A stretch of DNA of 64,000 nucleotides, taken from positions 2,077 to 66,076 of the forward strand of contig JAJPRD010000005.1 in NCBI GenBank assembly GCA_023700255.1, written 5' to 3'. The translations under genes were made by a program, and so were the position numbers. The DNA is from Candidatus Thalassarchaeaceae archaeon. Its GTDB lineage: Archaea > Thermoplasmatota > Poseidoniia > Poseidoniales > Thalassarchaeaceae. Below the pieces are notes generated by a model. The model was given only the letters and a program-made list of their open reading frames with translations, did not search any database and was not told the origin of the DNA. Below are positions 6,648 through 49,426 of the stretch, piece by piece. The stretch's first letter is position 1. Every line of letters begins with the position of its first letter.

Positions 6648-6797
6648 ATCATATTCTCGGATTCAGATATCAACTCAAAAAAAGTTAGATTTTATATGCT
6701 ATTTCTAACTTAATTTATTATAGTATATAAAAGATTTAGATGATAGAGTCTATAAGTGTTACACATTCTCGGCCGGCCACGGAGTGTGTTTAACACA

Positions 6798-9971: not shown

Positions 9972-9990
9972 TTAAGAAATATTTTCTTAA
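9972..9990 (+). promoter_or_regulatory. AT-rich hairpin starting at the second base of the SBP TAA stop codon (9969-9971 read as t-a-a with 9972 following; 8-bp stem, 3-nt loop)
   Basis: ttaagaaa-tat-tttcttaa. Confidence 0.35.
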
Positions 9991-10008
9991 ATATTCTGTA
10001 TACGTAAA

Positions 10009-10037
10009 GCAGTATGGCGGTTTTTCCGCCATACTGC
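10009..10037 (+). terminator. Strong intercistronic hairpin (12-bp perfect stem, TTTTT loop) between the SBP and permease genes
   Basis: gcagtatggcgg-ttttt-ccgccatactgc, read directly from the sequence. Confidence 0.55.
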
Positions 10038-10076
10038 CCTAATCTTTTTCTAAGTTATATATTGGTGCACCAATTG

Positions 10077-25286: not shown

Positions 25287-25452
25287 GGTTGTCGGTATTT
25301 CTGTATCATATCAATATTATTGATTCTTATTTGAGTTTAGATTAATGTTAGAGAATACAATGGATTAAATTGTAGTTTAAGTAATATATTTTTGAATTAA
25401 ATAATATAAATATCATCATAATAATAATATGCTTTCTGCCTTTAGGATTATC

Positions 25453-34395: not shown

Positions 34396-37300
34396 TGAAT
34401 TTGAATACAGCCCAAAGGCTGGCATTAAATTTAGACTCACATATTGTAATAGATGCAGGGGCGGGAACTGGAAAAACTAGCACTATAATAGACAGAGTAA
34501 TTGAGCATTATCTCACTGAAGATCAAAGAGCAACTAGGATTCTCCCAGCTCCAGAAAGACCCTCTAGATTAGATGGAGGTTTACTCCTGTCTCCAGTTTC
34601 CGAAACAATAGATTTACGAAAATGGGGGGGCTTACTTCCGGGAGAAGTTGTACTCTTGACATTCACTAATCGTGCTTCAGATGAGATGAGGGACCGATTA
34701 AGAAATAGAATTTCAAGATTAAAACCAGGCCCAATTGGTGATGATGGGATAAATCGTACAGATCCTAGGATTAGGCATCAAGGATTTAATGAGCAGTTAC
34801 TTACACTTTTAGAAGATGCTCCAATAGGTACCATAGACTCATTCTTCAACCAATTAATATCTCCTTACAAAGGTTATTTGGGAGATTCTTTTAGCAAAGA
34901 AGTAGTTTCCGACTCTAGTCGAATTTTACTTATAGAATCAGCTCTCAACACGCTTTGGAGATTACCTAACTCATTGAATTTAATTGGCGATGCAGTAGAT
35001 TCCGGAATACCTTCAGAAATCGCATCTCAAGTCCTAAATGCTAGAGATAATATCGCCAGACACTATTCTGGAAGACGAACGGCCGCAAATATTCTAAGAA
35101 GTTTAGTTTACAAATCTATTTTTATTCAAGAAGGCTCTAGATTACTGATAGATAAAGATGGCAAAATAGATCCAAATTTACTATGTGGAAGAATAATTGA
35201 ATCAATAGATATTTCTGAAGTTACTCAATTTACTGATCAAATCTATTCTGAAATATCGAACTATTGTAATCTTATCAAAGATCATGCCGCAGTCCTTGCC
35301 CCAGAGGGTGTATTTTCCGATACTAGGATTGCTACTTTAGATAAATTATGTGAACTTGGCATACCTTCAGATAAGTGGAATAAACTCATCTGGCTTAGTC
35401 ATATTTTACTGTGTATATCTAGCGAATCATCAATATTATCAGAAAAGCCAACTTTATTCCCTAGTTCTAAATTACCATCAAATGATTGGGAAAGTGGTGT
35501 TTTAAGTTATGCTAAAATTTCAAATAAAACTACAAAGGAACTAGTAAGAGATGAAATGAAAGATATAATTAGTAATATAAAAGATATTTGGGGCTCGAAA
35601 TTAGGGAAATTAATACTACACTATACTCAAATTACTTTAATTTTTGATAATTCAAATCCTCCATCTGCTCCAGAAGATTGGCAACATCCTCTCTCGGCCC
35701 TTCCATTTCCATTACCTGAAAGATTGAAATCAGGAGAGAAAGTTAACAAATATCATTTCACTTTAGATGCAGAAGTACAAAATTTAAATGATTTACGTTT
35801 AATGCATGATGGATTTTTAGGAATTTTAAATAATTTAAAGGAAAATGAGGAAACACACGACTACGAGGACGTACAAAGGTTAACCGGTGACTTATTACTT
35901 GCAAACTGTCCAGATATTTGTAGGTATTTTTATCCATCTCCAATTCAGGATGCCCTTGACTCATTAAGTACAGAAACTTGGAGGGATGATCATATTTCAA
36001 GAGCCTTTGAAGTATTAGAAAATATGGAAAAAAACCCAGATTTAGCAGGAAACAACTCTCATAATTTATCTGCCATTCGAATGGATATAACACAACGCTA
36101 TGAGTTGTTAAAGAGAATCAGGAGAAGATATAGGGCATTTATTATTGATGAAGCACAAGATAATTCTCCATTACAATGGCGCCTACTTTCCAGACTTTGG
36201 GGTGAAAGACATATTGAGGACGGCGAAATAACTGTTCCAGATACGCCATGGCAACCAACAGTTTGCTATGTTGGAGATGTAAAACAAAGTATCTACGCAT
36301 TCCGCCAAGCAGAAGTTACTGGCTTTCTAGAATATGCAAAAATTCTAAGAACCATAAATTCTCATGAATTTTCAAGTATCAAAGCATTAACTCGTGCCCC
36401 TCCACTTCGTAGAGAAAACGCAAGTAGAGATCCTAGGAACTCATATAATCTGAGTATAGCAAAAGCAAATTTAGTAGCAAAAGATGGAGGTAGAAATCTA
36501 ATTCCATGGATTCCTTTTGATTTATCTGATGTTCATTTGCCAATACCGTCACCTGAAGAAATAGAGGCTAGAAAAGAAGGTTTGATTAGATTACAAGTCA
36601 ATTATCGAACAGATGGTGGTTTACTCAAAGTAATGAATAACTGGTGGAATGATATATTCCATGTCAAACATAGAAATATTCCAAATGGTAATTTTTATGC
36701 TCAACCCCAACCACTTTTTCCAAGTAGAGAGAAGATTAACTCAAATGGCTCTTTAGAGTGGATTTGCCCTATAAATACAGGTGAAAATGTAAATCCAGTT
36801 ACTGATCTAAAAATACCATTAGACCCATTTGGACCAGGTAAACCGGATTCAATAGAAAGACAAAGTATGATGATAGCCATGAGAGTTAAAAATCTTATAG
36901 AAGGTAAATCGGTCAAAGTCAAATCCCCAAATGGTGAATGGACTGAGTTACCTGCAGAAGATTCCATTGAACCTAGTGAAATAATGATATTATTGCCAAG
37001 TAGATCAAAAATTAGAGATGTTATAATTAGATATCTTCACGATCTTGGCATACCTGCGCAAGCTGATAGAGAAGGAGGGTTATTAGATCGTCCTGCAGCA
37101 CACACAATAGAAGGATTATTACAATTCATTGCAAGACCATTTTCTAGACATCATGCAGCATGGGTTGCACGTTCAAGTTTGATAGGATTTGATGATGATA
37201 GATTACAGGAATTTATTTACAATTCTTCAAAAGATGAAAACTTATTAATTAGGTTGAGTAATTTTACTGTCAATGGAAGGCAAAAAGAGTTAGTTCAAAG

Positions 37301-39269
37301 GTGGATTGACCTATCCTCTTCAGGTAGAATAATTGATTTATTAGAAGAAACAATAGATAGATCAGATATTTTAATCTCATATCCAGATGTTGTTTCTAGA
37401 CAAGATATTGAACAAATTATAGACATAATAAGATCTCTTTCTAGAGAAGTAGGTGGAGATCCAATAATTATTGCCGATACGATTAGGAATCTCAGGGAAA
37501 GTAGTGGTAATGCATTAGAAGCGGTCACTATCCCTCCTAGTGATGCGGTTAGGGTGATGACTATACACGGATCCAAAGGACTTCAATCGAAGGTTGTTAT
37601 ATTAGCAGATATATTCAGTGGAAGGCAAACCAATATGACTATGGAAGATAGAGATAGATTAATTGTTGGACCAGAAATATTTGCTGGAAATCCAAGGCCA
37701 TGGGCAAATCAACTTTCTCCAGTTTCAGCATTATGGAAACATGCTAGGAAAATTCACAAAGCTCGTAAAAATGCAGAGTCCAGACGCTTACTGTATGTAG
37801 GTGCAACTCGTGCAGAAAATAAACTAATAATAGTTGGATCTACTAAAGAAACTTCATGGGCGTTCGATGAAGGAATTATTTTCCCTTGGACATATAATGA
37901 AACTCTTCCCCAACTGGGAGAGATGTGGATTGAATCTCTACGCCAAGGATCTGGAAATAGGGGGGAAGATACATCTCCCTGGTTAGATTCTTCAGATATA
38001 GTATTACAAGATATACCAGTTAAAAGTAAGGGAAGCCGTATTTTCGACCCTTCGATGATGATTAATAACGGATATCTGGGAGACTTAGAAGGATTACGGG
38101 GATTATCTATTTTCCACCATCCTGAGTGTTTTAACACTACAGTAGATCTTCAATATCAAATCTCAACACCATTAGTCAGAATCGAAGAAATACATAAAAA
38201 TGCGATAGAATCTATACAACAAGAAATTCCAGATTTCAAACCTCCTCGAAACGATTCTTTAATGAGGATGAAAATAGCTCCAAGTAAAATCTCAATTTTA
38301 GAAAAATGCGCTAGAAGATATTGGTTTGAGACAAAGGGAGGACTGTCTTCATTACCGGTTATTCCATTAGATGATAAGTCTAATTTGGGAGGCTTACCCA
38401 GAGGAATAGACGCAGCACTTTTCGGAACTATTGTTCATAGAATAATAGAAATTGGTATAGGAAATCCAGGACCGATTGGTGAGCACCCCACAACTCCATT
38501 GCCTAAATCTTGGGTTCAAAAAACAGATGACTTAATCCATAGTCATGACATTCATAAAATTGTATTTGACGAATTGCTGTCTCCAAATGCCGATAAAAAG
38601 AATATTGGTCTTTTGGTTGATAGTATGATCAAAAGATTACAATCTGGTCCACTTGGTATTCTCACATCAGGCCAATCTTTTGATGGACATAGAGTAGAAG
38701 GCCTTAGGACAGAAATGCCATTTAATCTAACAAAGAAAATAAAATTGAATGATTTTATACGTTCTAGATGGACTCCTGACGGTGCTGAACCTTTATCTAA
38801 AATTGAATATGCAGAATTTGAAATGGATGGACTAATTGATTTGGTATTATGCACAACGTCTGATACAGAATCATACATACGTCCTGTAGACTTGAAAACT
38901 GAAGAAGCAAGAAAACTAATCAATGGAGACAATACTGGTTTATTGGAAACACTGGGCGATATGGGAACTAAACCTAATTGCGATGCCGAATTAGTAGTTC
39001 TAATGCAGCATAGGATGCAACAAGCCCTATATTTTAGGGCATTAGAAAGTATCGAGGAAGAGAGATACAAATATGGATATCTTCCAAGAAAGGTATTACC
39101 TCCTGCTATTTTGATTGGAGTTACTGGGCGCTTTGTAGAATATCCTGAAGAAATGTTAAATGATGCATTAAATGATTTGGATAATAATTTAATTTTAGCA
39201 TCAGAGATTGCTTTTAGTTCTGAAATGAAACTTTCTGATTATCCATGTAGTTGTAATGAATGCCCATAA
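34395..39269 (+). CDS. addA: AddA-like UvrD/Rep superfamily-1 helicase with a C-terminal RecB-family nuclease domain (1624 aa)
   Basis: Motif I IDAGAGTGKTS, II FIIDEAQDNSP, III VGDVKQSIYAFRQA, IV VNYRT, V MTIHGSKGLQ, VI LLYVGATRAENKLIIVG. Nuclease motifs: FGTIVHRIIE, GLIDLV, VDLKT, QQALYFRAL. Confidence 0.8.
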   Translation: MNLNTAQRLALNLDSHIVIDAGAGTGKTSTIIDRVIEHYLTEDQRATRILPAPERPSRLDGGLLLSPVSETIDLRKWGGLLPGEVVLLTFTNRASDEMRDRLRNRISRLKPGPIGDDGINRTDPRIRHQGFNEQLLTLLEDAPIGTIDSFFNQLISPYKGYLGDSFSKEVVSDSSRILLIESALNTLWRLPNSLNLIGDAVDSGIPSEIASQVLNARDNIARHYSGRRTAANILRSLVYKSIFIQEGSRLLIDKDGKIDPNLLCGRIIESIDISEVTQFTDQIYSEISNYCNLIKDHAAVLAPEGVFSDTRIATLDKLCELGIPSDKWNKLIWLSHILLCISSESSILSEKPTLFPSSKLPSNDWESGVLSYAKISNKTTKELVRDEMKDIISNIKDIWGSKLGKLILHYTQITLIFDNSNPPSAPEDWQHPLSALPFPLPERLKSGEKVNKYHFTLDAEVQNLNDLRLMHDGFLGILNNLKENEETHDYEDVQRLTGDLLLANCPDICRYFYPSPIQDALDSLSTETWRDDHISRAFEVLENMEKNPDLAGNNSHNLSAIRMDITQRYELLKRIRRRYRAFIIDEAQDNSPLQWRLLSRLWGERHIEDGEITVPDTPWQPTVCYVGDVKQSIYAFRQAEVTGFLEYAKILRTINSHEFSSIKALTRAPPLRRENASRDPRNSYNLSIAKANLVAKDGGRNLIPWIPFDLSDVHLPIPSPEEIEARKEGLIRLQVNYRTDGGLLKVMNNWWNDIFHVKHRNIPNGNFYAQPQPLFPSREKINSNGSLEWICPINTGENVNPVTDLKIPLDPFGPGKPDSIERQSMMIAMRVKNLIEGKSVKVKSPNGEWTELPAEDSIEPSEIMILLPSRSKIRDVIIRYLHDLGIPAQADREGGLLDRPAAHTIEGLLQFIARPFSRHHAAWVARSSLIGFDDDRLQEFIYNSSKDENLLIRLSNFTVNGRQKELVQRWIDLSSSGRIIDLLEETIDRSDILISYPDVVSRQDIEQIIDIIRSLSREVGGDPIIIADTIRNLRESSGNALEAVTIPPSDAVRVMTIHGSKGLQSKVVILADIFSGRQTNMTMEDRDRLIVGPEIFAGNPRPWANQLSPVSALWKHARKIHKARKNAESRRLLYVGATRAENKLIIVGSTKETSWAFDEGIIFPWTYNETLPQLGEMWIESLRQGSGNRGEDTSPWLDSSDIVLQDIPVKSKGSRIFDPSMMINNGYLGDLEGLRGLSIFHHPECFNTTVDLQYQISTPLVRIEEIHKNAIESIQQEIPDFKPPRNDSLMRMKIAPSKISILEKCARRYWFETKGGLSSLPVIPLDDKSNLGGLPRGIDAALFGTIVHRIIEIGIGNPGPIGEHPTTPLPKSWVQKTDDLIHSHDIHKIVFDELLSPNADKKNIGLLVDSMIKRLQSGPLGILTSGQSFDGHRVEGLRTEMPFNLTKKIKLNDFIRSRWTPDGAEPLSKIEYAEFEMDGLIDLVLCTTSDTESYIRPVDLKTEEARKLINGDNTGLLETLGDMGTKPNCDAELVVLMQHRMQQALYFRALESIEEERYKYGYLPRKVLPPAILIGVTGRFVEYPEEMLNDALNDLDNNLILASEIAFSSEMKLSDYPCSCNECP

Positions 39270-39363
39270 AGCCATATATAATTTGTTAATTGATAATATC
39301 TGATTATCTAAATTGATACTTTGCTAGGGAAGAATACATTTGCTACCTTGCGTACACAGCATC

Positions 39364-40776
39364 ATGGCCCCGGACCTCGACGCTTTGATGAAACGTAGTG
39401 ATGAATTATGGGAGGACTCTATTCTTCCTAGTTTAGGTGAATTTATAGAAATAGCAGCTCTCTCTCCTGCTTTTGAACCAAATTGGGCAGAAAAAGGAGA
39501 TTTATCTGCTACTTTAGATCTTTTCTGTGCATGGCTAGATGATCAAAAACTATCGGGAATGTCATATGAAATCCATCAAATGGACGGTTTAACTCCAGTC
39601 CTTCTAGTAACAGTCGAAGGAACTGGTGCAGGTGAAGTTATTTTCTATTCTCACTTAGACAAACAACCGTCAAAACCAGAATTATGGTCAGAAGGACTCC
39701 ACCCTTTGAAAGCAGTACGTAAAGATCCATGGTTATTTGGTAGGGGGGCATTAGATGATGGTTATGGCGGATATTTATGCGTTACCGCCCTAAGGATGCT
39801 ACAAGAATTGAATACGCCACATCCAACATGCAAATTCTTGATAGAGACATGTGAAGAGTCAGGTTCATTCGACCTTCCTCCATATTTAGATTTATTAACT
39901 GAAAAACTGGGAGATCCAGATCTAATAGTAGTTTTAGACAGCGGAGGGCCTGATTATGATCATATTTGGACTACTGAAGCATTGAGGGGCCTTGTTTCAG
40001 GAACTCTTTCTGTACAAGTATCGCATGAAGGAGTTCATTCGGGTATGGCCGGCGGTACTATTCCATCGTCTTTTAGGGCTCAAAGAATTCTTCTAGATAG
40101 AATTGAAGATTCTTCAACAGGAGAGATTTTAATTCCAGAAATGCATGTTCCTATTTCAGATAAAATTAAGAATCAAGCTTCAGAATTAGCCAAGGTAATA
40201 GGAAATTCCATTTGGGAAGGATTACCTGTAGTGGATACTTTGATTTCTCAATCCAGCTCAGTAGAAGAAAGTCTTCTCGATATAAACTGGAGGCCTGCTT
40301 TGGGAATTATTGGGGCTGATGGAATGCCATCAGTACAATCCGCAGGAAACGTATTAAGAACAAATACAGATTTAAAACTGAGTTTTAGAATACCACCGGG
40401 AGTTAATGCAGAATCCGTAGAAAAAATCGTAAAAGAAAAATTAGAAGACAATCCTCCATTTGGAGCGAAGGTAATATTCCATCTTGATCCATCTGCAGAT
40501 GGATTTCATGCACCTCCTCTTGATGGTCCACTTCTAGAATCATTAAATGAGGCTTCAATGCACATAACTGGACTACCTCCATTAGCTATATGGGTAGGAG
40601 GGACAATACCCTTCATGGCAATGATGCAGAATAAATATCCAAGTGCAAAATTTTTGTGTACAGGTACCGGTGGTCCGGGAAATAATGCCCATGGCCCTGA
40701 TGAAAAATTACATATCCCATCTTCCAAGAGACTTACTGCAGTACTTTCAGCCACAATTGCTGCATTATCGAGATGA
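39364..40776 (+). CDS. M20-family metallopeptidase (dipeptidase-like)
   Basis: FYSHLDKQP, GRGALDDGYG, ETCEESGS and a C-terminal HGPDE. ATG 39364 is preferred to the TTG at 39340. Confidence 0.8.
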   Translation: MAPDLDALMKRSDELWEDSILPSLGEFIEIAALSPAFEPNWAEKGDLSATLDLFCAWLDDQKLSGMSYEIHQMDGLTPVLLVTVEGTGAGEVIFYSHLDKQPSKPELWSEGLHPLKAVRKDPWLFGRGALDDGYGGYLCVTALRMLQELNTPHPTCKFLIETCEESGSFDLPPYLDLLTEKLGDPDLIVVLDSGGPDYDHIWTTEALRGLVSGTLSVQVSHEGVHSGMAGGTIPSSFRAQRILLDRIEDSSTGEILIPEMHVPISDKIKNQASELAKVIGNSIWEGLPVVDTLISQSSSVEESLLDINWRPALGIIGADGMPSVQSAGNVLRTNTDLKLSFRIPPGVNAESVEKIVKEKLEDNPPFGAKVIFHLDPSADGFHAPPLDGPLLESLNEASMHITGLPPLAIWVGGTIPFMAMMQNKYPSAKFLCTGTGGPGNNAHGPDEKLHIPSSKRLTAVLSATIAALSR

Positions 40777-40857
40777 ACATGTATTTTTTGACTCAGAGAT
40801 GACATTAATTCCGCCGATGTTAAATCAGATGCTTCAGTCGAACATAGTGAGATAACC

Positions 40858-41475
40858 ATGAACGAAGGCGATAATGGAATCGGTTTTCCTGAACCAAACC
40901 CTCCCTCTATAGCAAATTTAGAAGAAGAGTTGAGAATAGCAAATGATCGCTTAGAAAAATTATATGCAGCATATAATGAATCTTCAAAGATGAATGAAGA
41001 GCTACAAGCTATAGTCGAAGTACTAGAAAAAGAAGCAATAGAAAGCGAAATCGAAAAAGAAGGAATCCAATCTCTTCTGAATGAGAAGGATGATAGATTG
41101 AGAACTATGGAATTAGATCGTGCAAAAGCAAACAAAACAATTGAACATCTTCAACCAAAATTAGAAAAAACTGAAGAAATGTATTCGAGAGAAAAAGCAA
41201 GACTAGGGCGTGTTTTTGAAGTTGCTGAGGAATTAGATGAGGCTTTACAAACTGCAACCACTGAAATGTCTGCACGTGATGATTGGTATGTTCAACATAT
41301 GCAATTATTTGAAAATCTAAATCAAGCAATCCAAACTAGGTATGAAATGATAGACAGTGCTGTTCAAGCAATGTCCGAATTCCGTCAAAAACAAGATACT
41401 TTCAAAGAACGTATGGACGAAGCACTCGATGCAGTAAAAGATAAAATCGGTGATGAAGAACAAGACGAATCTTGA
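40858..41475 (+). CDS. Hypothetical coiled-coil protein
   Basis: 205 aa, heptad-rich and Glu/Lys/Leu-rich, with no recognisable catalytic motif. Confidence 0.5.
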   Translation: MNEGDNGIGFPEPNPPSIANLEEELRIANDRLEKLYAAYNESSKMNEELQAIVEVLEKEAIESEIEKEGIQSLLNEKDDRLRTMELDRAKANKTIEHLQPKLEKTEEMYSREKARLGRVFEVAEELDEALQTATTEMSARDDWYVQHMQLFENLNQAIQTRYEMIDSAVQAMSEFRQKQDTFKERMDEALDAVKDKIGDEEQDES

Positions 41476-42258
41476 TTATACGGGTTTAGACCCATCCGCT
41501 AATCTAATACATTTAGCAGGCAATCCGCCCCAAACTTCTCCTGCAGGGACATTAGTCCATTTTGGTAAAACAGCCCTAGAAGCAATGACCGCACCTTCCC
41601 CAATTGTACAACCAGGCTGAATAATTGATTCCGTCCCAATAAGGGCATCATTCCCAATAACAACCGGGGCCATGACTAACTCCCCCTTCTCAGTTAAATG
41701 AGCATTAATAACTGCCTTTCCGCCTATCACGACCCTTTTACCAATTGTAACAGATCCGCAATCATTGATATTGGGTGAATTTATTTGGGCCCCCTTTCCA
41801 ATTTTAGCTCCTGATAATCTATAATATGTATTGCCAATAAATGAGGGTACCAAATGAGGTAGGAAAAATAAAGCCACTTTATGAAAAATCATTGACCATG
41901 CCCATTGAATTGTAACAAAAGATTGTAATGGATATCTTCCGGGTTCTATTCGTGGCCTTAATAATCCAGCCATGATTCCACTAACAAAAACTAAACTTAT
42001 TCCCCAGGTCATTACAAACAATCCCAATGATACCCCAATTCCAGTTAATTCAATGATATAACCTCCCGTAGTTGATGCAGATAATGATAATGGCAATTCT
42101 TGTCCATGCCAATAATAAAACAGGGCTATTGCAGGAATTGCAGTAAGTCCAATTATTACACCAAATATTGGCAATACTATAGCTGTTAATAAATTTTGAA
42201 CTAATATAAATGACTTCATTGGCTCACCAGTTATCATATCGCAGACGTGTTGTAACAA
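41476..42258 (-). CDS. Membrane-anchored hexapeptide-repeat (left-handed beta-helix) acyltransferase
   Basis: About 4 N-terminal TM helices, then hexapeptide repeats: GAQINSPNINDCGSVTIGKRVVIGGKAVINAH...VIGNDALIGTESIIQPGCTIGEGAVIASRAVL. Confidence 0.65.
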   Translation of the reverse strand: MLQHVCDMITGEPMKSFILVQNLLTAIVLPIFGVIIGLTAIPAIALFYYWHGQELPLSLSASTTGGYIIELTGIGVSLGLFVMTWGISLVFVSGIMAGLLRPRIEPGRYPLQSFVTIQWAWSMIFHKVALFFLPHLVPSFIGNTYYRLSGAKIGKGAQINSPNINDCGSVTIGKRVVIGGKAVINAHLTEKGELVMAPVVIGNDALIGTESIIQPGCTIGEGAVIASRAVLPKWTNVPAGEVWGGLPAKCIRLADGSKPV

Positions 42259-42372
42259 GATGTTTCGGGCTATATTCTAAAAATTTAAATCAATACGGTA
42301 GATTAATTAGAAGCAGGCACATGTATATGCCTATCCATTTCGAAATTTTAGAAGCATAAGGGGAAAAGTAAA

Positions 42373-43353
42373 ATGTTCAATACAAAATTAACCATTGATG
42401 CCGACATAAAATATCCTATCATTTGTGGTGCAATGTATCCATGTTCAAATCCTGAATTAATTGCGGCAGCTTCCAAAGGAGGCGGAATCGGCATAATACA
42501 GCCTGTTTCCTTGACTATGGTCCATGGATATGATAAGCCAAATAGAAAAGAAGGACTAAGATCGGGAATTAAAAAAATACAATCACTTACTGATAAACCA
42601 ATTGGATTTAATGCATTAATAGAAAAAGGTAGCCAGAAATACCTACAACAGATGTCAGAATGGATTGATGTTGCGCTTGAAGAAGGAATCAGATTTTTTG
42701 TGACATCTCTAGGAAAACCAGATTGGGTATGTGAAAAAGTTCACTCATATGGTGGAGTAGTTTATCACGATGTTACTAATCTAAAATGGGCAAAAAAAGG
42801 TAAAGAATGTGGTGTTGATGGTTTAATTTGTGTGAATGACAGAGCAGGTGGGCACTTAGGTCAATTATCTATGAAACAGATGTATGAACAACTTTCTAAT
42901 TTAGGATTACCATTAATCTGTGCAGGAGGAATAGGAAGTGAAATAGAATTGAAAGAAGCTATGGAAGTTGGATACGATGGAGTTCAAATCGGTACAAGAT
43001 TTATTGCAACAGATGAGTGTACGACCCCTGAGGATTATAAATCTGCAATATTGAAGGCCAATGAAGAAGATATAACTTGGACGACCAAATTAACAGGTAT
43101 CCCAATCTCAGTAATCAATTCAAATAAATTCAAGAAACGGAACTCATGGATTGTAAGAAAACTTTTACAAAGTAGGTTCAAACATAGAATTAGAGCATTA
43201 ATCACCGTGGTATCATTTTACAGAATGAAGTCCTTTACGAAGGGTAAAAATAGTTCTCCCAAGGATCTTTGGTCAGCTGGAAAAAGTGTCCATACAATAG
43301 ATAGTATAGAATCTGCTACAATAATTATGGAGCGTCTAGGGGAATCGTTGTAA
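42373..43353 (+). CDS. Nitronate monooxygenase / enoyl-ACP reductase II-like FMN oxidoreductase (NMO family)
   Basis: YPIICGAMYPCSNPELIAAASKGGGIGIIQP ... AGGHLG ... ICAGGIGS ... GYDGVQIGTRF. Confidence 0.8.
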   Translation: MFNTKLTIDADIKYPIICGAMYPCSNPELIAAASKGGGIGIIQPVSLTMVHGYDKPNRKEGLRSGIKKIQSLTDKPIGFNALIEKGSQKYLQQMSEWIDVALEEGIRFFVTSLGKPDWVCEKVHSYGGVVYHDVTNLKWAKKGKECGVDGLICVNDRAGGHLGQLSMKQMYEQLSNLGLPLICAGGIGSEIELKEAMEVGYDGVQIGTRFIATDECTTPEDYKSAILKANEEDITWTTKLTGIPISVINSNKFKKRNSWIVRKLLQSRFKHRIRALITVVSFYRMKSFTKGKNSSPKDLWSAGKSVHTIDSIESATIIMERLGESL

Positions 43354-43391
43354 TTTAGATAGATTAAATTAGTTTGAATAATTACTAAATT

Positions 43392-43566
43392 ATGTCATTA
43401 ATGGTACTGCTGCCATCACTGTCATGGTAAAAGATACGTATCCTAAAATTAAGAAAGTCAATATATGTCCTGAGTTCATATTTCGTTCTTACCGTTATCC
43501 CATTAATATAAGGGTGTTTAAAATTACTAATTTACCATATATACTGTTGTATTCATTCAATCATAA
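43392..43566 (+). repeat. 175-bp direct repeat, copy 1 (100% identical to 46620-46794)
   Basis: Base-by-base comparison of both copies found no mismatch. The flanks diverge immediately on both sides. Confidence 0.95.
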
Positions 43567-43849
43567 TCACAGCATAAAATTTCATATTTTGACGTTATGA
43601 AGTAAATATACACCATTGAGTCATATTGAAATGGACTTGGTACCAGTATCTTCCAGTGAAGGATGTAGTCTGGCTTAAGCAGATGTTCCGTCAAGAATTG
43701 GATTTGCGCCCACCCTCACTTACGAAAATAGATATCTACTAAATTATAAATTATTCATTAGGCCATAATTAACTCAGCCTTGAATCTACGTAGTATGTCC
43801 TCTCCTGCTCTAGAGTCGGGACTGAGTTTATGGTGTGGTATGCATATCG

Positions 43850-44452
43850 ATGGGCATGAAGCCGGTAGCTATACTGATGACGCTACTGATGATATCGACA
43901 ACTCTTGTAGGTTGCGTGGGAATTGATAGACTCTTGAAGGAACCAACCGACACTGCATTCTGGGATTGTAGGATTGAGGTATCATTAGACGGTCTAGATG
44001 TGGAGACTTACCGAGAAGCTGTGGAACAGCACCCAGGTTACCCTGAGTGGTGCGGAGCGCCGGTCCCAAAGGAAATGCTCGTGGATGACCCGGGTCCTGG
44101 CTTCCTTGATGGCAGCAATTCCTCCCTCCCTCCCTCCGACGAGTCTTACGGTTCGGCTAATGAAGGAGGAGTATGGGGAAGGAATGCGACACACTTCATT
44201 GGCTCATGGCCGGGACCGGAAGAATGTTCCACGATGACTATCTACGATATCTTCGATTGGATTGACTGGCCAAGCGATTACTCAGATGGTGAGGTGGGGC
44301 AATGGGACGAGGAGATTTCCCTGTGTTCTACTCCGGTACCATGCGAGAGTTTGACCGACTCCGAACTCATCTACGAGAGGTGCTGGCCCACTCCTTACGC
44401 CCGGTACTACTGGACTGGAGAATATCTTTACATCGGCCAGGCAAGTGTATGA
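43850..44452 (+). CDS. Hypothetical lipoprotein-like exported protein (G+C-rich gene)
   Basis: Signal peptide with MISTTLVGCVG. The mature part is Trp/Cys/Pro/acidic-rich. Start taken at ATG 43850; the ORF opens with GTG at 43835. Confidence 0.55.
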   Translation: MGMKPVAILMTLLMISTTLVGCVGIDRLLKEPTDTAFWDCRIEVSLDGLDVETYREAVEQHPGYPEWCGAPVPKEMLVDDPGPGFLDGSNSSLPPSDESYGSANEGGVWGRNATHFIGSWPGPEECSTMTIYDIFDWIDWPSDYSDGEVGQWDEEISLCSTPVPCESLTDSELIYERCWPTPYARYYWTGEYLYIGQASV

Positions 44453-44669
44453 ATAGTGTTAATGCTGAAAGGATGGGTTACAATCAGTCCTTCAGGAGTC
44501 ACCGTTCCAAACATCGCCTTGATAAGATAAATCACTTTTCAGTCAATATGGCTGCAGTTGTAAATGATTCAGAAAAACTTGTACGATCTGTATCCGGGTT
44601 TAGATTGACGTTAGGAGATGAAGGTAATGAGCATCTTTGATTTTACAATTTTAGGGAGAAAGAGTCTAG

Positions 44670-45260
44670 ATGACAGAGATTAAAATAAGAAAGAGTGACA
44701 AGGAACTAACCTCTTATGAGGTGTTCATGAAAGTAGGTAATATGTTAGTTGGCTTTTTGGCATTTATTGGGGTGTCGATTGGAATTGGAGTATCTGAAGG
44801 AACCATAATTCCTGTGATTATTTGTGGTTTACCTCTTACATTAATTGTTATAATGTTACTTTACCAGGTGATGATGCATTTTCTCGGCTATGGTAAAATG
44901 GTGATAACATCTAAAAATGAAATCGTTCTTAGAACACCAAAGTCAGGTCGAAAGAAAACTAGTAGAAAGAAAACTAGTATATTTACATCTCTAAGCAAGA
45001 TGATAACAAATCCAATAGCTAAAATGATGATGAGGGAAGCGGATAAAGATGGTGACGGTAGGATTTCTTTTGATGAATGGATTGATGCTTCAACCATAAA
45101 TGAATCTGAATCAAATGAGCTTAGAATAGAATTCGATAAATGTGATGTTGATGGAGATGGTTACCTATCTTTGGAAGAATTAAGAACATTTATATCATCT
45201 AGTAATCAAGAGAATTGGGGAGAAGAAAAGACCAATAATTGGTGGGAAAAATCGAACTAG
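44670..45260 (+). CDS. Membrane protein with two canonical EF-hand Ca2+-binding loops
   Basis: Two N-terminal TM helices. EF loops are DKDGDGRISFDE and DVDGDGYLSLEE. The tail is NNWWEKSN. Confidence 0.75.
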   Translation: MTEIKIRKSDKELTSYEVFMKVGNMLVGFLAFIGVSIGIGVSEGTIIPVIICGLPLTLIVIMLLYQVMMHFLGYGKMVITSKNEIVLRTPKSGRKKTSRKKTSIFTSLSKMITNPIAKMMMREADKDGDGRISFDEWIDASTINESESNELRIEFDKCDVDGDGYLSLEELRTFISSSNQENWGEEKTNNWWEKSN

Positions 45261-45365
45261 TCTTCACCTATTAATGTATGAGGCAAATAGGAACTTAAAA
45301 GTCATGATAATTTTTCCAATCAGATACTCAATCATATTATTTAATATCCTTAACTACGACTAATC

Positions 45366-46427
45366 ATGAAAAGTCAGACTGCAATCACATTATGCCTAAT
45401 TTTTATGTTTGCGCCATTATCGGGATGTATTGAATCCAGTGATGATGATAAAGATTCAGAAGAAAATCCTGTAAATCCAAATCAAATAATATGCCCAGAT
45501 GGAACCAATGGAACAATTGAATGGGGTGTCATTACTTGTGCAGAACCAGAGGTTTTTCGAACTTCAGATGTCAGCAATCAAACTCAAAGTTTAACCTTTG
45601 AGTGGTATAATATTGCTGCTACAGAATGGGGCAATTTTGGTCCAGTTGAGATTTATATTATTGGAAGCGATATCGATGCTGCTAAGCAATTAGAAGATGA
45701 ATATTGTGAAAGACATAAGGCGCTTGATTCCAACTGGAATGAAGAGTGGGATTGTGCAAATGATAACTATCAGATCTTCACGAGATATGTCGAAGAAGGA
45801 GGCGCTGCAATTAGCACTTTCAAGCGAACTTACATCGAATATGACTTCATGATGATGATCATGTCTGCTAAGTACCCAGGGCCCTCAGAAGAGGATTACA
45901 AACCAGTAGTTCTTCACGAATACTTCCATATTTTCCAACATTCACAGATTAGTGACGAGTGCAGCGGTGATAGTAGGGATACCTGTGAAAGAGATTCTAA
46001 AATGGGCGGAGAGCAGAATCCTTGGTTTGCCGAAGGCGGAGCAGAGTATATGGCCCAAACACTATACTCTAAACAAGAAGGTGTGAGGGATAATTATCTT
46101 AGAGAAGTTATGCAAAATAAGTTAGATTATTCCAAGGATGATTATCTTGGTCAAAATATTTCTTTAGACCAATTAACCTACTCCTCAGAAATTAATGTCT
46201 ATGGAGTCAGTACTTGGTTTACAGCTTATCTAATTCATAATGAAGGTATTGATGCATACCTGAATGGCTTTTACGGTGACCTCGATGAATTAGGATTCAA
46301 TGGAGCATTCGAGAAGCATTTCGAAAAGACAAAGGTAGAGTACATTGCCGAATTTGAAGGCTTCCTAAATCAAAGCAATGAAGAAATAATGTCGATTATT
46401 CCACTAAGTCCAACTAATACTGAATGA
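45366..46427 (+). CDS. Exported lipoprotein-like putative gluzincin metallopeptidase
   Basis: Signal peptide with APLSGCIESSDDD. HEYFH (HExxH) is followed 35 residues later by WFAEGGAEYM, a candidate third ligand Glu. Confidence 0.6.
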   Translation: MKSQTAITLCLIFMFAPLSGCIESSDDDKDSEENPVNPNQIICPDGTNGTIEWGVITCAEPEVFRTSDVSNQTQSLTFEWYNIAATEWGNFGPVEIYIIGSDIDAAKQLEDEYCERHKALDSNWNEEWDCANDNYQIFTRYVEEGGAAISTFKRTYIEYDFMMMIMSAKYPGPSEEDYKPVVLHEYFHIFQHSQISDECSGDSRDTCERDSKMGGEQNPWFAEGGAEYMAQTLYSKQEGVRDNYLREVMQNKLDYSKDDYLGQNISLDQLTYSSEINVYGVSTWFTAYLIHNEGIDAYLNGFYGDLDELGFNGAFEKHFEKTKVEYIAEFEGFLNQSNEEIMSIIPLSPTNTE

Positions 46428-46619
46428 GATTATTTCAGATTTATCAACTTTAAACATTATTCCAAAGTTACTGAGAATTAAGCGTAATCTTCTATTTAAA
46501 CTATTGAATTTTACAAAATACTCTATTAAGAAGTTAACTGGGTAAAGTTAAGAATTTATTAGGTAAATTCAATGATAATTTTTATTTTATTTTTCTATAG
46601 TGTAGTACACGTACTTCTC

Positions 46620-46794
46620 ATGTCATTAATGGTACTGCTGCCATCACTGTCATGGTAAAAGATACGTATCCTAAAATTAAGAAAGTCAATATATGTCCTG
46701 AGTTCATATTTCGTTCTTACCGTTATCCCATTAATATAAGGGTGTTTAAAATTACTAATTTACCATATATACTGTTGTATTCATTCAATCATAA
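46620..46794 (+). repeat. 175-bp direct repeat, copy 2 (100% identical to 43392-43566)
   Basis: See copy 1. The spacing between copies is 3228 bp. Confidence 0.95.
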
Positions 46795-46832
46795 AAATCA
46801 AACTTTATTAAAATCTAAGATTATATCTTTAC

Positions 46833-48134
46833 TTATTCTTCTTCATTAGAACTCCACCAAGGAGGGGGTGCGTTTTCAGATTCTAACTTATTTGCATAAT
46901 TTTCCATATTAAAGAAGAATTCAATGATACTGTCTGCTTCTATAAAACCGTCTTTATCTTTATCTAATAATTTAAAAATTTCATTTTCATTACCTTTTAT
47001 TTGCTCAGCGAGTAATTCTTCATAATGTGAGGAAGCGGCTAAAAAATCTTTTGATAGTATTTTAATAAAACTATCTTCAGAAATTCTGCCCTCCTCATCC
47101 AATTCATACTCTTTCATAGATTCCTTAATTCCTTTACGATAACTTCTTTCGGTAATTTTTGACCATAGTCCTTTGCCAAATGGTGCCCCCTGTATTATCC
47201 TCTCTCTAGTATCAATTCCACCATGTTTCGGCCTAACATAAATTCTTTTACCTGTCCATACATCTAACATAGATCCAATAAATATAATTATTACAGATCC
47301 ACCACAAAGTAATGACAATCCCTCTTGGAGTAAACTATCTTGCTTCTGTAGGGATACAATAACTATCGCTACAACTCCACTAACGATTACAGCAATTTGG
47401 TTATATAATATGGCAAAAAACTTTGATTTTATTTCATCACCAGATATCAAATTATATTTATTTCCAGGATAACCAGGATGACTAAAATCGTCTATTTTCT
47501 TTTTTATAATATTATCTGACACCGTAATATCATCTTCAAAATTGACTCCGAAATATTTGGATATCTCCAATGCAACATTCTCACCTCGGTCTCTTCCTTC
47601 TACAAACAAGACTGGTATCCACCCTGTAGATGCTAGCAAAAATATCTCTTTTACCAAGTGAGTAGTGGTGCGGGAACTTGATGACTCACTAGCAGGATGA
47701 CGAATTTTTCTTTCTGCATCTCTAATTCCAACACCAAAAAAATCTTCTAAATTATACACTCTTGGTTTTCCTATTGATATTGGAGATTTCTTAATACTCA
47801 TTAAGAGATTTTTTCTATCAATTTCAATTATTTCAGGCCCATTTATCATTTTTATGCCACTAAAGAAAACTAAAATCCCGAAGAGCCCATATAATAGAAT
47901 ACCTCCAAATGTTTCATTAACAACAGTTTCTTTTCCAATAATAATATCAATTAGTTCATATATTACGAAAATCATCATCATTAATGAAAAACCTATAAGG
48001 CCAATCCCGCCAATTGTTTCTTTGAAAATAGATTTGTTTTGTTTTATAGTAAGAATATTATTACTCATCAAAGCTTCTATTTTATTAGGGCCAAAATAAC
48101 CAAAATGAGGTTTTGCATTAAATTCCACTTCCAT
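46833..48134 (-). CDS. Polytopic membrane protein with a C-terminal EF-hand-like loop
   Basis: Two pairs of TM helices. The C-terminal loop DKDKDGFIEADS has position 12 as Ser, so it is non-canonical. The tail is PPPWWSSNEEE. Confidence 0.6.
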   Translation of the reverse strand: MEVEFNAKPHFGYFGPNKIEALMSNNILTIKQNKSIFKETIGGIGLIGFSLMMMIFVIYELIDIIIGKETVVNETFGGILLYGLFGILVFFSGIKMINGPEIIEIDRKNLLMSIKKSPISIGKPRVYNLEDFFGVGIRDAERKIRHPASESSSSRTTTHLVKEIFLLASTGWIPVLFVEGRDRGENVALEISKYFGVNFEDDITVSDNIIKKKIDDFSHPGYPGNKYNLISGDEIKSKFFAILYNQIAVIVSGVVAIVIVSLQKQDSLLQEGLSLLCGGSVIIIFIGSMLDVWTGKRIYVRPKHGGIDTRERIIQGAPFGKGLWSKITERSYRKGIKESMKEYELDEEGRISEDSFIKILSKDFLAASSHYEELLAEQIKGNENEIFKLLDKDKDGFIEADSIIEFFFNMENYANKLESENAPPPWWSSNEEE

Positions 48135-48274
48135 ATATTTCTTGTTTTAGAATACTTTATATTTTAACTTATATCTACGTCGAAACTTCTACTCAAATTA
48201 CATATTACAATATAAAAAATTCAAAATAAATAATTTTTTAATATTATGTTAATATTCGGCAGTCTCAATACTGT

Positions 48275-49426
48275 ATGTCTTACCCATCAAACATGGCATC
48301 TACTTCCGGATTACTCGGAGATGGTAAAAAAGCCAAGAAAATTCATCATTTAATCAAAGCACCTGAGAATACACCATTCTCAGTTTCCAGAAGAGAATCA
48401 TGGGATGCAGATAAGCCTGCAGTAGTCTATATAACTCCTGAAAACCTTCCTGACGGTACTCCATGTACTGCTGCAACCGTAATTCTTAGGACAAAAGGAT
48501 GCGTATGGTGGTGGAAGTCTGGGTGTACCTTTTGTGGATATTTTAATGATGTAAGGGATGATGTTACATCTGCTAATCTATTTGCACAGTGGGAAGAAGC
48601 AAAACGACAAACGAAAGATTTTGCAGGGTGTACTATGATTAAGGTTTATACTTCAGGAACATTTTTTGAGGATAGAGAAATTCCTGTAGACTTTCAAGAA
48701 GCAGTTCTTGTCGAAACACATGAAAGAGGGATGCACTTAGTTGTAGAAGCACAAGCACAACTTTGTTATCCCGATAAGCTTGCTTGGTTAGCAGAAAAAC
48801 ATCCTGGATGTACCGTAGCACTTGGTTTAGAAGCATATGATGATATTGTACTTAGATTTCACGTGAACAAAGGTTTCTCGGTAAAACAATGGCATAAAGC
48901 TGTTGATTTGTTAAGGGAAAATAATCTTAGAGTAAAAACATATTTAATTTTTAAACCACCATTTATGTCAGAAGGTGATGCACTAAATCTGACTACTAAA
49001 TGGGTGAAACAAGTTGCACCACATTCTGATGAAGTTTCAATAAATCCAATGAATATCCAAAGAGGTACGATTGTAGATAGATTATTTAGAAATAGGGAAT
49101 TTAGGCCTCCATGGCTTTGGTCATTAGTTGATATGATTGAAAATACTCATGAAGAGATATCCAAACTAGAATGCCGCACTATTGTTCATCCAACGGCCGG
49201 TGGAAGGATAAGGGGTGCACATAATTGTGGATCATGTGATGAAGATATTGTTGCGGCCATAGAAAGATATTCAGTTTCAAGTAACTTAGATGAATTCTCC
49301 GATATAGATTGTGAATGCAAAAAAGTTTGGAAATCTGAAATTGAAAATGATAATATGTTACCGACAATTCTAGGTTCTGGTGTTGAAAGAAGAGTTTCTC
49401 GAGTAGACACAGTTCGTGCTCCTTGA
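48275..49426 (+). CDS. Radical-SAM-like protein, possibly the archaeosine-pathway RaSEA/TIGR01210 family
   Basis: Cys cluster TKGCVWWWKSGCTFCGYF in a TIM-barrel-length protein, plus a second cluster HNCGSCDED. The family assignment is from memory of the motif, not from a search. Confidence 0.5.
   Translation: MSYPSNMASTSGLLGDGKKAKKIHHLIKAPENTPFSVSRRESWDADKPAVVYITPENLPDGTPCTAATVILRTKGCVWWWKSGCTFCGYFNDVRDDVTSANLFAQWEEAKRQTKDFAGCTMIKVYTSGTFFEDREIPVDFQEAVLVETHERGMHLVVEAQAQLCYPDKLAWLAEKHPGCTVALGLEAYDDIVLRFHVNKGFSVKQWHKAVDLLRENNLRVKTYLIFKPPFMSEGDALNLTTKWVKQVAPHSDEVSINPMNIQRGTIVDRLFRNREFRPPWLWSLVDMIENTHEEISKLECRTIVHPTAGGRIRGAHNCGSCDEDIVAAIERYSVSSNLDEFSDIDCECKKVWKSEIENDNMLPTILGSGVERRVSRVDTVRAP

What the first reader, a model, noticed from the sequence alone, without database searches (positions are those of the whole stretch)
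43392..46794. Perfect 175-bp direct repeats bracket a 3-gene islet
The segments 43392-43566 and 46620-46794 are identical at all 175 positions, and the flanking sequence diverges immediately on both sides. They lie in intergenic DNA, 3228 bp apart. They enclose three genes for exported or membrane proteins: a lipoprotein-like protein, an EF-hand membrane protein and an HExxH lipoprotein-like protein. No integrase, transposase or tRNA gene is visible, and the repeat has no obvious terminal inverted repeats. Zero divergence over 175 bp of AT-rich non-coding DNA implies a recent event or ongoing gene conversion. The architecture is what remains when a circular element carrying one repeat copy recombines into a chromosomal copy, and it allows precise loop-out of the cassette. 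This could be an integrase-independent or trans-mobilised surface-protein cassette, or a copy of a dispersed repeat family.
Basis: partly seen in the sequence, partly recalled or inferred. Interest (0 to 1): 0.7.

Follow-up and report, generated by a model that had tools for sequence, protein, structure and literature searches.

The report
Duplicated micro-gene brackets a swappable gene cassette
In an uncultured marine archaeon, two identical copies of a tiny 29-codon membrane-protein gene flank a 3-kb cassette of surface-protein genes that some sister strains lack, a real but fairly ordinary case of a gene-exchange hotspot, unusual only in that the anchor is a micro-gene and not a tRNA gene.

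Summary
Window 43392-43566 and 46620-46794 are identical at 175/175 positions, with sharp edges and only two copies in the window. The host is a Marine Group IIb archaeon (Thalassarchaeaceae).

The repeat is not non-coding DNA. On the minus strand each copy is a complete small gene: conserved promoter-like blocks plus a 29-codon ORF (MNSGHILTFLILGYVSFTMTVMAAVPLMT). That ORF is conserved and under purifying selection in related genomes.

The cassette is a true insertion/deletion polymorphism.
- A 98%-identical metagenomic contig joins 43391 to 46795 through one identical copy (the empty site).
- Two independent assemblies carry the filled site.
- A lineage whose backbone is only 75-80% identical carries the same repeat plus cassette at 93-96% identity.
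- One cassette gene has GC3 of 0.55 against about 0.22 for the genome.
- A second gene, EF433, is bracketed by two such modules in other strains.

No integrase, transposase, tRNA gene, terminal inverted repeats or RNA structure were found.

Best reading: an additive genomic-island hotspot where cassettes are gained and lost by homologous recombination between copies of a conserved micro-gene. Perfect identity does not require a very recent event, because orthologous copies in strains about 2% apart are also identical.

The parts
43392..43566 (-). Repeat copy R1: a complete sORF module (promoter-like region plus 29 codons)
   Evidence: 175/175 identical to R2. Identical in L098, L108 and L004.
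46620..46794 (-). Repeat copy R2: a complete sORF module
   Evidence: Intact with both flanks in the independent scaffold L001.
43390..43479 (-). sORF copy 1: 29 codons plus a TAA stop, MNSGHILTFLILGYVSFTMTVMAAVPLMT, predicted single transmembrane helix
   Evidence: Homologues of 29 codons in L007 and L091-L100. It is the only frame open in all variants. Variable sites at codon positions 1/2/3 = 10/6/16, and dN/dS is 0.02-0.12 within clades.
46618..46707 (-). sORF copy 2: the same 29 codons with a TGA stop. The repeat ends at the first base of the stop codon.
43480..43566 (-). Promoter-like upstream region of sORF copy 1 (same sequence at 46708-46794). Conserved blocks are ATACAACAGTATATATG, AAACAC and TTATATTAAT, the last centred about 28 nt before the ATG.
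   Evidence: Blocks are invariant or near-invariant across 12 module copies, including distant lineages (alignment A1). The BRE/TATA reading is inference.
43626..43768 (+). Remnant of a GNAT-like acetyltransferase gene with a ~335-bp internal deletion
   Evidence: tblastn against the intact 159-aa gene in L100: residues 1-36 at 86% and residues 143-159 at 65%. L100 carries 335 extra bases here.
43835..44452 (+). Cassette gene 1 (g205): lipobox protein of unknown function with foreign base composition
   Evidence: GC 0.523 and GC3 0.549 against about 0.22 for other genes. Only 4 homologues were found. The 65%-identical ones sit in ~50% GC contigs L115-L119.
44449..44640 (+). 63-codon ORF called by gene finders in related contigs
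   Evidence: Called in L001, L100, L108 and L111. Not tested further.
44670..45260 (+). Cassette gene 2 (EF196): membrane protein with two EF-hand calcium-binding motifs
   Evidence: Pfam EF-hand_1 E = 1.3e-15.
45366..46427 (+). Cassette gene 3 (HExxH353): lipobox protein, probable MA-clan zinc metallopeptidase (M61/M1-like)
   Evidence: Invariant H184, E185, H188 and E223 in 43 homologues. Pfam M61 matches 28 of 43 members and M9 matches 18 of 43. AlphaFold model pLDDT 88. Weak fold matches to M61 and M1 peptidases, E = 3e-3.
46428..46619 (.). Spacer 'x' between the cassette and R2, GC 0.23, origin unknown
   Evidence: Matches only L001 among all 127 loci fetched. L100 diverges from the window at 46436.
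46833..48134 (-). EF433: hypervariable membrane protein with a C-terminal EF-hand. It is itself a cassette in this locus.
   Evidence: 71-95% aa identity among strains whose neighbouring genes are 96-100% identical. Absent in L099 and L090. Bracketed by two sORF modules in L097 and L120-L126.
48248..48274 (-). Single 27-nt site next to the RaSEA start codon, where strains L120-L126 and L097 carry a further sORF module (R')
   Evidence: Alignment A4. In L120, R' is flanked by imperfect 20-nt direct repeats (15/20). The window has one hybrid copy.
42373..43353 (+). Left core flank: NMO/FabK-like oxidoreductase gene, followed by the 38-bp spacer 'sp' (43354-43391)
   Evidence: Pfam NMO E = 6e-35. 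The spacer is shared with L098, L094, L097 and L120.
48275..49426 (+). Right core flank: archaeosine radical SAM gene RaSEA
   Evidence: TIGR01210, 280 bits against a cut-off of 212.

Best explanation
The 175-bp repeat is a whole small gene. It comprises conserved promoter-like blocks plus a 29-codon ORF for a single-helix membrane micro-protein that is conserved in Thalassarchaeaceae (Marine Group IIb). The gene sits in a hypervariable stretch between the core genes NMO and RaSEA and acts as a block of portable homology. DNA carrying a copy of the module next to other genes recombines with the resident copy through the host's homologous recombination system. A circle with one module copy integrating Campbell-style gives exactly 'flank-R-cassette-R-flank'. 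Recombination between the two copies loops the cassette out again and leaves one copy. The 3.05-kb cassette holds an acetyltransferase remnant, a foreign-GC lipoprotein gene, a small ORF, an EF-hand membrane protein gene and a putative lipid-anchored zinc peptidase gene. This cassette was added that way in the window's lineage.

Shown: the repeat, the conserved coding micro-gene, the empty and filled alleles, sharing of the cassette across lineages, and a second gene bracketed by modules.
Inferred: the recombination pathway, a circular intermediate, the direction of transfer, and the promoter reading.
For: Repeat and sharp edges.

Micro-gene. A 29-codon ORF lies in both copies. Homologues with the same length and frame occur in at least 9 sequence variants from other contigs. 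Synonymous changes dominate: variable sites at codon positions 1/2/3 are 10/6/16, and dN/dS is 0.02-0.12 within clades. It is the only frame open in all variants. Upstream blocks are conserved even where dS exceeds 1.

Empty site. In L098, window 38000-43566 (98.1%) and 46620-49254 (92.9%) overlap on one 175/175 copy. The junction spacer|R|EF433 is also contiguous in L094, L097 and L120-L126, so the empty state is the common one.

Filled site in independent assemblies: L001 and L108.

Horizontal sharing. In L100/L101 the backbone is 75-80% identical, but R is 92.6% and the cassette 96.0% identical. Homology starts at the sORF stop codon. g205 has GC3 of 0.55, and its nearest relatives outside this cassette sit in 50% GC contigs.

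Recurrence. EF433 is bracketed by R and R' in L097 and L120-L126. The L120/L124 synteny break falls at the 5' edge of R'.

Variable tract ends. R and R' are 87/90 identical in the coding part but only about 60% identical upstream. In the window the whole 175 bp is identical. This fits homologous recombination or gene conversion, not a fixed att core.

No recombinase gene, tRNA gene, inverted repeats or hairpin.
Against: No read-level data, so neither a circular junction nor mixed alleles within one sample were seen. The origin of the right end of the cassette (spacer x, 46437-46619) is unknown. The only cross-lineage copy (L100) has a module on the left side only, so the first formation of R-cassette-R still needs an unexplained, probably illegitimate, joining event. 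Break points hug the stop codon within 0-10 nt in several independent contexts, which could also hint at a site-specific process. L098 comes from a short-read metagenome assembly, and a wrong path through the repeat node cannot be fully excluded for that one contig. Expression and translation of the 29-codon ORF are untested.
Confidence: 0.6

Rival explanations
1. Site-specific integration in trans. The module, or its 3' end at the stop codon, is an attachment site for a recombinase encoded elsewhere in the genome or by a virus. The cassette is a non-autonomous integrative element, and its target-gene copy recreates the micro-gene on insertion, as tRNA-targeting islands do.
For: The edges are sharp. 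Break points lie within 0-10 nt of the stop codon in several contexts: window R2, L100, L127 and R' in L120. R' in L120 is flanked by 20-nt imperfect direct repeats that overlap the stop codon. The cassette is shared between distant lineages.
Against: No integrase or recombinase gene appears in the window or in the cassette-bearing loci. There is no match in viral contigs, phage records or plasmid records. The extent of identity differs between cases: 175 bp in the window, about 90 bp of coding sequence only in L097 and L120. No common core motif was seen at the cassette ends. The duplicated segment is the whole gene with its promoter, much longer than usual att cores.
Confidence: 0.15
2. An older local duplication of the micro-gene, kept identical by gene conversion. 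The cassette was inserted between the two copies by unrelated, illegitimate events, so the repeats would be by-products rather than the means of insertion.
For: Two-module arrangements exist in other strains: R ... R' around EF433. The mosaic R', with a converted coding part and a divergent promoter, shows conversion between copies.
Against: The empty allele equals the filled allele minus exactly one repeat plus the cassette. L100 shows the left module and the cassette travelling together, with homology running through the repeat edge. No lineage was found with two adjacent modules and nothing between them.
Confidence: 0.15
3. Assembly artefact: a collapsed or mis-joined repeat, or one copy pasted twice.
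For: A 175-bp repeat is longer than usual k-mers. Scaffold L001 has an N-gap inside R1. Graph assemblers can make near-identical copies look identical.
Against: R1 with both flanks is contiguous in L108. R2 with both flanks is contiguous in L001. These come from different samples and different strains: EF433 is 97.5% identical and the cassette 98%. Logan contigs from several runs break at the repeat edges.
Confidence: 0.03
4. A transposable element or MITE family.
For: None beyond the presence of a repeat.
Against: No terminal inverted repeats, no transposase and no short target duplication. There are one or two copies per locus, always in the same genomic neighbourhood in close relatives. The module encodes a conserved protein.
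Confidence: 0.02

Closest known systems
Additive flexible genomic islands, i.e. integration hotspots of marine bacteria (Alteromonas; PMC4898812)
   Same: The same chromosomal site carries different cassettes in closely related strains. Cassettes are nearly identical in distantly related backgrounds. An inserted cassette is marked by a direct repeat of the gene at the insertion site.
   Different: There the anchor is usually a tRNA or tmRNA gene, only part of it is repeated, and integrases are often nearby. Here the anchor is a 29-codon protein gene repeated whole with its promoter, the host is an archaeon, and no integrase is seen.
Tycheposons and tRNA-anchored islands of Prochlorococcus (bioRxiv 10.1101/2020.12.28.424599; features from my own knowledge of the work, paper not read here)
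   Same: Cargo-carrying segments sit in hypervariable islands of streamlined marine plankton. They are flanked by repeats of the target gene and some lack their own recombinase.
   Different: Tycheposons are defined by a tyrosine recombinase and mostly target tRNA genes. Neither feature is present here.
Campbell-type integration and loop-out by homologous recombination between direct repeats (textbook mechanism; for example plasmid integration at shared IS or rRNA copies, and amplifiable units)
   Same: One shared segment on the incoming DNA and on the chromosome gives two direct copies around the insert. Recombination between them restores a single copy. The edges of identity equal the edges of shared homology.
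   Different: The shared segment here is a functional micro-gene with only 175 bp of homology. The circular form has not been observed.
Integron gene cassettes
   Same: Promoter-proximal arrays of short cassettes, each bounded by a repeated element, often encoding accessory or surface functions.
   Different: There is no IntI integrase and no attC-type hairpin (fold z-score 0.42). The repeat encodes a protein, and the cassette genes face away from or against the module.

Membership tests
Additive flexible genomic island / integration hotspot | The same locus holds different gene content in closely related strains | tested here: met
   At least six arrangements between NMO and RaSEA or around the module: window, L098, L099, L100, L120, L124 and L127.
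Additive flexible genomic island / integration hotspot | Cassettes are shared across lineages independently of core phylogeny | tested here: met
   Cassette 96.0% identical against NMO 74.7% and M20 80.4% in L100. g205 has GC3 of 0.55.
Additive flexible genomic island / integration hotspot | Direct repeat of the target gene flanks the inserted cassette | tested here: met
   The whole sORF module is repeated, 175/175. The empty site has one copy.
Additive flexible genomic island / integration hotspot | tRNA or tmRNA gene at the hotspot (usual, not obligatory) | tested here: not met
   ARAGORN finds 0 genes in the window. No Rfam hits.
Integrase-borne integrative element (genomic island, tycheposon, provirus) | Tyrosine or serine recombinase encoded in or next to the element | tested here: not met
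   No such Pfam or NCBIfam domain in the cassette, in the scanned window ORFs, or in the called genes of related loci.
Integrase-borne integrative element (genomic island, tycheposon, provirus) | Short att core of fixed extent at both ends | tested here: inconclusive
   The extent of identity varies: 175 bp in the window against about 90 bp in L097 and L120. A 20-nt imperfect repeat flanks R' in L120. No shared core was identified.
Insertion sequence / MITE | Terminal inverted repeats and a short target-site duplication | tested here: not met
   Best terminal pairing is 20 nt at 75%, lying partly outside the repeat. The flanks are unrelated.
Insertion sequence / MITE | Many dispersed copies | tested here: not met
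   Two copies in 64 kb. A profile search of 1.65 Mb of related loci finds modules only at this neighbourhood, plus one distant gene start in L039. Whole genomes were not available.
Integron | IntI integrase with attI and hairpin-forming attC sites | tested here: not met
   No integrase. The repeat has no folding signal, z = 0.42.
Known small-protein or RNA family for the repeat | Match to a curated Pfam, NCBIfam or Rfam model | tested here: not met
   Pfam and NCBIfam give nothing at E < 0.05. Rfam gives nothing on the repeat, even at E <= 1.

The most novel reading that the evidence does not exclude
The 29-codon module is more than passive homology. It could be a dedicated landing pad of a cassette-exchange system in Marine Group II archaea. 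It would be a functional counterpart of integron attC/attI sites or of tRNA att sites, served by an unrecognised trans-acting recombinase or carried between cells by vesicles or viruses. Cassettes would be cut and joined at the stop codon and at the 5' edge of the promoter. In this reading the micro-gene, whose product resembles a bare signal peptide (see the fasciclin gene start in L039), spreads by duplicating itself with each cassette.
Probability: 0.12. Interest if true: 0.75.

Novelty: new variant of a known kind. Interest (0 to 1): 0.45.

Why it matters
Marine Group II archaea are among the most abundant archaea of the surface ocean. They are uncultured, and I know of no described plasmids or integrative elements for them, so how their accessory genes move is an open question. 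This locus gives a concrete, checkable example. It shows a defined empty/filled pair. It shows a cassette shared at 96% identity between lineages only about 75-80% identical in their core. It shows a recurring anchor that is a previously unannotated, conserved 29-codon gene. It also flags a conserved micro-protein family that gene callers almost always miss, which is useful for annotating these genomes. It does not reveal a new principle, because hotspots with target-gene repeats are well known in marine bacteria.

Tried and rejected
RNA gene or structured RNA element for the repeat: no Rfam hit at gathering score or at E <= 1, and fold z-score 0.42.

Known family for the 29-aa product: none in Pfam or NCBIfam.

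Viral or plasmid origin: the degenerate sORF pattern gives 0 hits in viral contigs. The whole repeat-cassette-repeat segment gives no match in phage or plasmid records.

Opposite-strand ORF (58 or 65 aa, plus strand): interrupted by stops in five relatives.

Residual homology beyond the repeat edges, which would indicate an older and longer duplication: none.

Terminal inverted repeats: none meaningful.

Origin of spacer x (46437-46619): no match in any fetched locus except the same arrangement in L001.

NMO synteny in GTDB representative genomes: not conserved beyond close relatives, so it was uninformative.

Link to the abundant Thalassoarchaea ncRNA 'Tan1' (PMC5069720): could not be checked because no sequence is given in the text or the held supplements.

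HExxH protein against solved structures by sequence: no hit. Only weak fold matches.

Relation between the two EF-hand proteins: only the EF-hand region aligns, E = 8e-4.
Full report
1. OBSERVATION

Window 43392-43566 and 46620-46794 are identical at 175/175 positions. They lie 3228 bp apart and are the only two copies in the window. The 30 and 60 nt outside each edge show no similarity above shuffled controls (p = 0.38-0.94). The window has no tRNA gene and no Rfam family at gathering score. Composition and neighbouring genes place it in a Marine Group IIb archaeon (Thalassarchaeaceae). The best match among GTDB representative genomes is 79% aa identity for the NMO gene.

2. THE REPEAT IS REAL, NOT AN ASSEMBLY PRODUCT

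- The ENA scaffold L001 (ERZ23498602) has the same arrangement. R2 is intact with both flanks. R1 is split by a 100-N gap with 55 nt on each side.
- A MEGAHIT k119 contig from another sample (L108, ERZ27286437) runs NMO - R1 - cassette without a break, at 98.2% identity.
- Logan contigs from several runs end 30 nt into R1, end exactly at its last base, or start exactly at its first base or 30 nt before its end. This is the expected behaviour at a two-copy node of a k = 31 graph.
- L001 and L108 are different strains from the window. EF433 is 97.5% identical in L001, and the cassette is 98.0% identical in L108.

3. WHAT THE REPEAT IS

On the minus strand each copy holds an ATG-started 29-codon ORF, MNSGHILTFLILGYVSFTMTVMAAVPLMT (43479..43390 and 46707..46618). 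The identity between the copies stops at the first base of the stop codon, which is TAA in copy 1 and TGA in copy 2.

Homologous ORFs were found with a degenerate DNA pattern in 11 metagenome contigs and by proximity in others.
- Apart from the variant in L099 and L090, which reads 38 codons because its stop codon is AAA, every complete copy has exactly 29 codons.
- In codons 12-29, which were not part of the search pattern, variable sites fall 10/6/16 at codon positions 1/2/3.
- Within-clade dN/dS is 0.02-0.12 while dS reaches 1 or more. One close pair, window against L100, gives 0.8 on only seven changes.
- This is the only frame open in all variants. The opposite-strand 58/65-aa ORF carries stops in five relatives.
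- Residues 6-28 are strongly hydrophobic, with a mean Kyte-Doolittle score of 1.98. This fits one transmembrane helix.

The 87 nt upstream of the ATG carry blocks conserved in all lineages: ATACAAmrGTAywTATG, AAACAC and TTArT within TTATATTAAT. I read AAACAC plus TTATATTAAT, centred about 28 nt before the ATG, as a BRE/TATA promoter for a leaderless or short-leader mRNA. That reading is inference.

The repeat starts about 14 nt upstream of the first conserved block and ends at the stop codon. It is therefore exactly one functional gene unit. It has no RNA-fold signal (z = 0.42). Its product matches no Pfam or NCBIfam family. In a distant MGIIb genome (L039) the same promoter blocks and start codon open a 303-aa fasciclin-repeat protein, whose N-terminal signal/anchor segment aligns with the micro-protein.

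4. THE CASSETTE IS AN INSERTION/DELETION POLYMORPHISM

In metagenome contig L098 (MDSY01090606.1), window 38000-43566 aligns at 98.1% and window 46620-49254 aligns at 92.9%. The two alignments overlap on a single 175/175-identical module, and the cassette is absent.

One short-read contig could in principle be a wrong path through a repeat node. However, the same junction (NMO-side spacer | R | EF433) is contiguous in L094, L097 and L120-L126. These come from many samples and include contigs of 83 and 164 kb. The single-copy state is therefore common and probably ancestral, and the filled state is derived in the window/L001/L108 lineage.

5. THE CASSETTE MOVES BETWEEN LINEAGES

L100 and L101 have a backbone far from the window: M20 80.4% and NMO 74.7% nt identity. 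Yet they carry the module at 92.6% and the cassette at 96.0%.

Homology begins at the sORF stop codon (window 43390). It runs through the right edge of R1 into the cassette and ends 9 nt after the HExxH gene (46436). In L100 a 711-aa gene follows, not a second module.

L100 has an intact 159-aa GNAT-like gene where the window keeps only its first 36 and last 17 codons around a 335-bp deletion. The window's copy is therefore the decayed one.

g205 has GC 0.523 and GC3 0.549, against about 0.22 for the other 47 ORFs. Outside this cassette its only relatives (65% aa) lie in ~50% GC contigs. L100's gene next to the module (266 aa) is homologous to the 231-aa gene next to the module in L099 (50% identity). 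The module is thus resident at the NMO side in all these lineages.

6. THE PATTERN RECURS

- L099 and L090 (about 82% backbone identity) have NMO - 231aa - R - RaSEA, with neither EF433 nor the cassette.
- L097 and L120-L126 have spacer - R - EF433' - R' - RaSEA. EF433 is therefore itself bracketed by two modules.
- L124 is 99.96% identical to L120 to the right of a point about 43 nt upstream of R'. To the left it has quite different genes (kinase, 273 aa), so a synteny break coincides with a module edge.
- R and R' are 87/90 identical in the coding part but only about 60% identical upstream. The R' promoter resembles the more distant L007 type. This mosaic points to recombination or gene conversion with end points inside the module.
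- The window, L098 and L127 lack R'. At that place (48248-48274) they have one 27-nt sequence. It equals the left member joined to the right flank of an imperfect 20-nt direct repeat that flanks R' in L120.

7. MECHANISM

No integrase, transposase or other recombinase domain occurs in the cassette, among the larger ORFs of the window that were scanned, or among the called genes of the related loci. There are no terminal inverted repeats and no viral, phage or plasmid matches.

Four observations bear on the mechanism:
- two copies whose identity spans exactly the homology shared by different genomic contexts;
- an empty allele that equals the filled allele minus one copy plus the cassette;
- outer flanks that are always the resident ones;
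- variable conversion-tract ends.

These fit homologous recombination between module copies best. Gain would come from integration of module-bearing DNA, most simply a circle. Loss would come from loop-out. I put this at about 0.6.

A trans-acting site-specific recombinase remains possible, at about 0.15. Break points cluster within 0-10 nt of the stop codon in several contexts. How the first R-cassette-x-R arrangement arose is also unexplained: spacer x matches nothing else.

8. THE 'ZERO DIVERGENCE' ARGUMENT

Orthologous modules in L098, L108, L004 and L001 are all 175/175 identical to the window. In L108 the adjacent NMO end, the R1-g205 spacer and the HExxH gene differ by 0.9%, 0.75% and 1.1%. 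About 1.4 differences would then be expected in 175 bp, so seeing none is unremarkable. Perfect identity of R1 and R2 therefore does not by itself show a very recent event or conversion.

A T99G variant of R1 occurs in two samples (L003 and L112). Conversion is independently suggested by the R/R' mosaic.

9. CARGO

All three main products look exported or membrane-bound.
- g205 has the lipobox LVGC.
- EF196 has transmembrane segments plus two EF-hands.
- HExxH353 has the lipobox LSGC and invariant H184, E185, H188 and E223. Pfam gives M61 and M9 hits in homologues. The model is confident (pLDDT 88) and weakly resembles M61 and M1 zinc aminopeptidases.

A surface zinc peptidase fits the protein-degrading lifestyle proposed for MGII. 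That link is background knowledge, not tested here.

10. COMPARISON AND VERDICT

The closest described phenomenon is the additive flexible genomic island of marine bacteria. It is a site-directed hotspot where cassettes come and go, with a tell-tale direct repeat of the target gene and near-identical cassettes in distant relatives (PMC4898812).

The defining features of variable content, cross-lineage sharing and target-gene repeat are all met here. The usual tRNA anchor and integrase are not. It is therefore a new variant of a known kind: an archaeal hotspot anchored on an unannotated 29-codon gene that is duplicated whole.

Interest is moderate at 0.45. This is a clean, testable case of gene exchange in an uncultured, abundant archaeal group, together with a conserved micro-protein family. 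It is not a new principle.

Noticed in passing
window 43835-44452: Cassette gene g205 has GC 0.52 and GC3 0.55 in a genome whose genes have GC3 of about 0.22. Its only non-local relatives (65% aa) lie in ~50% GC contigs (L115-L119).
   Followed up: yes
L039 13979-14137 (minus strand): In a distant MGIIb genome the same promoter blocks and ATG open a 303-aa fasciclin-repeat protein. Its N-terminal signal/anchor segment aligns with the 29-aa product. The micro-gene may be a truncated or detachable 'signal-peptide head'.
   Followed up: partly
window 48248-48274; L120 8634-8900: Strains L120-L126 and L097 carry an extra module R' next to the RaSEA start, flanked by imperfect 20-nt direct repeats (15/20), one overlapping the sORF stop codon. 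The window has a single hybrid copy, as if R' had been deleted between the repeats or inserted with a duplication.
   Followed up: partly
window 46833-48134: The EF433 membrane protein is hypervariable: 71-95% aa identity among strains whose adjacent RaSEA and downstream genes are 96-100% identical. Its family is tiny, with 11 proteins in 5.8 billion.
   Followed up: partly
L120 10515-10584; L094 1405-1454: In the L120/L094 lineage the NMO gene and everything to its left are replaced by other genes (312 aa, 716-aa ELWxxDGT-type lipoprotein, PolB and others). A 33-nt remnant of the NMO 3' end plus the spacer is left next to the module.
   Followed up: partly
L122 and L123 (both ends of ENA ERZ16273740 contig_2214): The same ~3.5-kb segment (R'-EF433'-R-312aa-716aa) sits in inverted orientation at both ends of one 34.6-kb contig, with different inner neighbours. 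This is either a fold-back assembly error or a real inverted duplication.
   Followed up: no
window 30820-39269: Two very large adjacent genes (1191 aa with a C-terminal PD-(D/E)XK nuclease domain; 1624 aa UvrD/AddA-like helicase) resemble a bacterial AddAB/RecBCD-type end-processing pair. I found this notable in an archaeon; it might bear on recombination capacity.
   Followed up: no
window 25429-28692: A 1087-aa protein combines RCC1-like repeats with ephrin-receptor-like Cys-rich repeats. Its DNA shows 102-nt periodic repeats (families D1, D4 and D6).
   Followed up: no
window 6756-13769: A 1071-aa fusion of solute-binding domains (SBP_bac_3 plus two ANF_receptor/Peripla_BP_6 units) has an internal duplication (7905-8177 against 9000-9272, 76%) and raised GC (0.43). 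It is followed by a 1251-aa double branched-chain amino-acid permease.
   Followed up: no
L003 6427-6601 and L112 1-175: The same single variant (T to G at repeat position 99, 11 nt upstream of the ATG) occurs in copy R1 in two unrelated sequencing runs. R1 is therefore not identical to the window's repeat in every population.
   Followed up: partly
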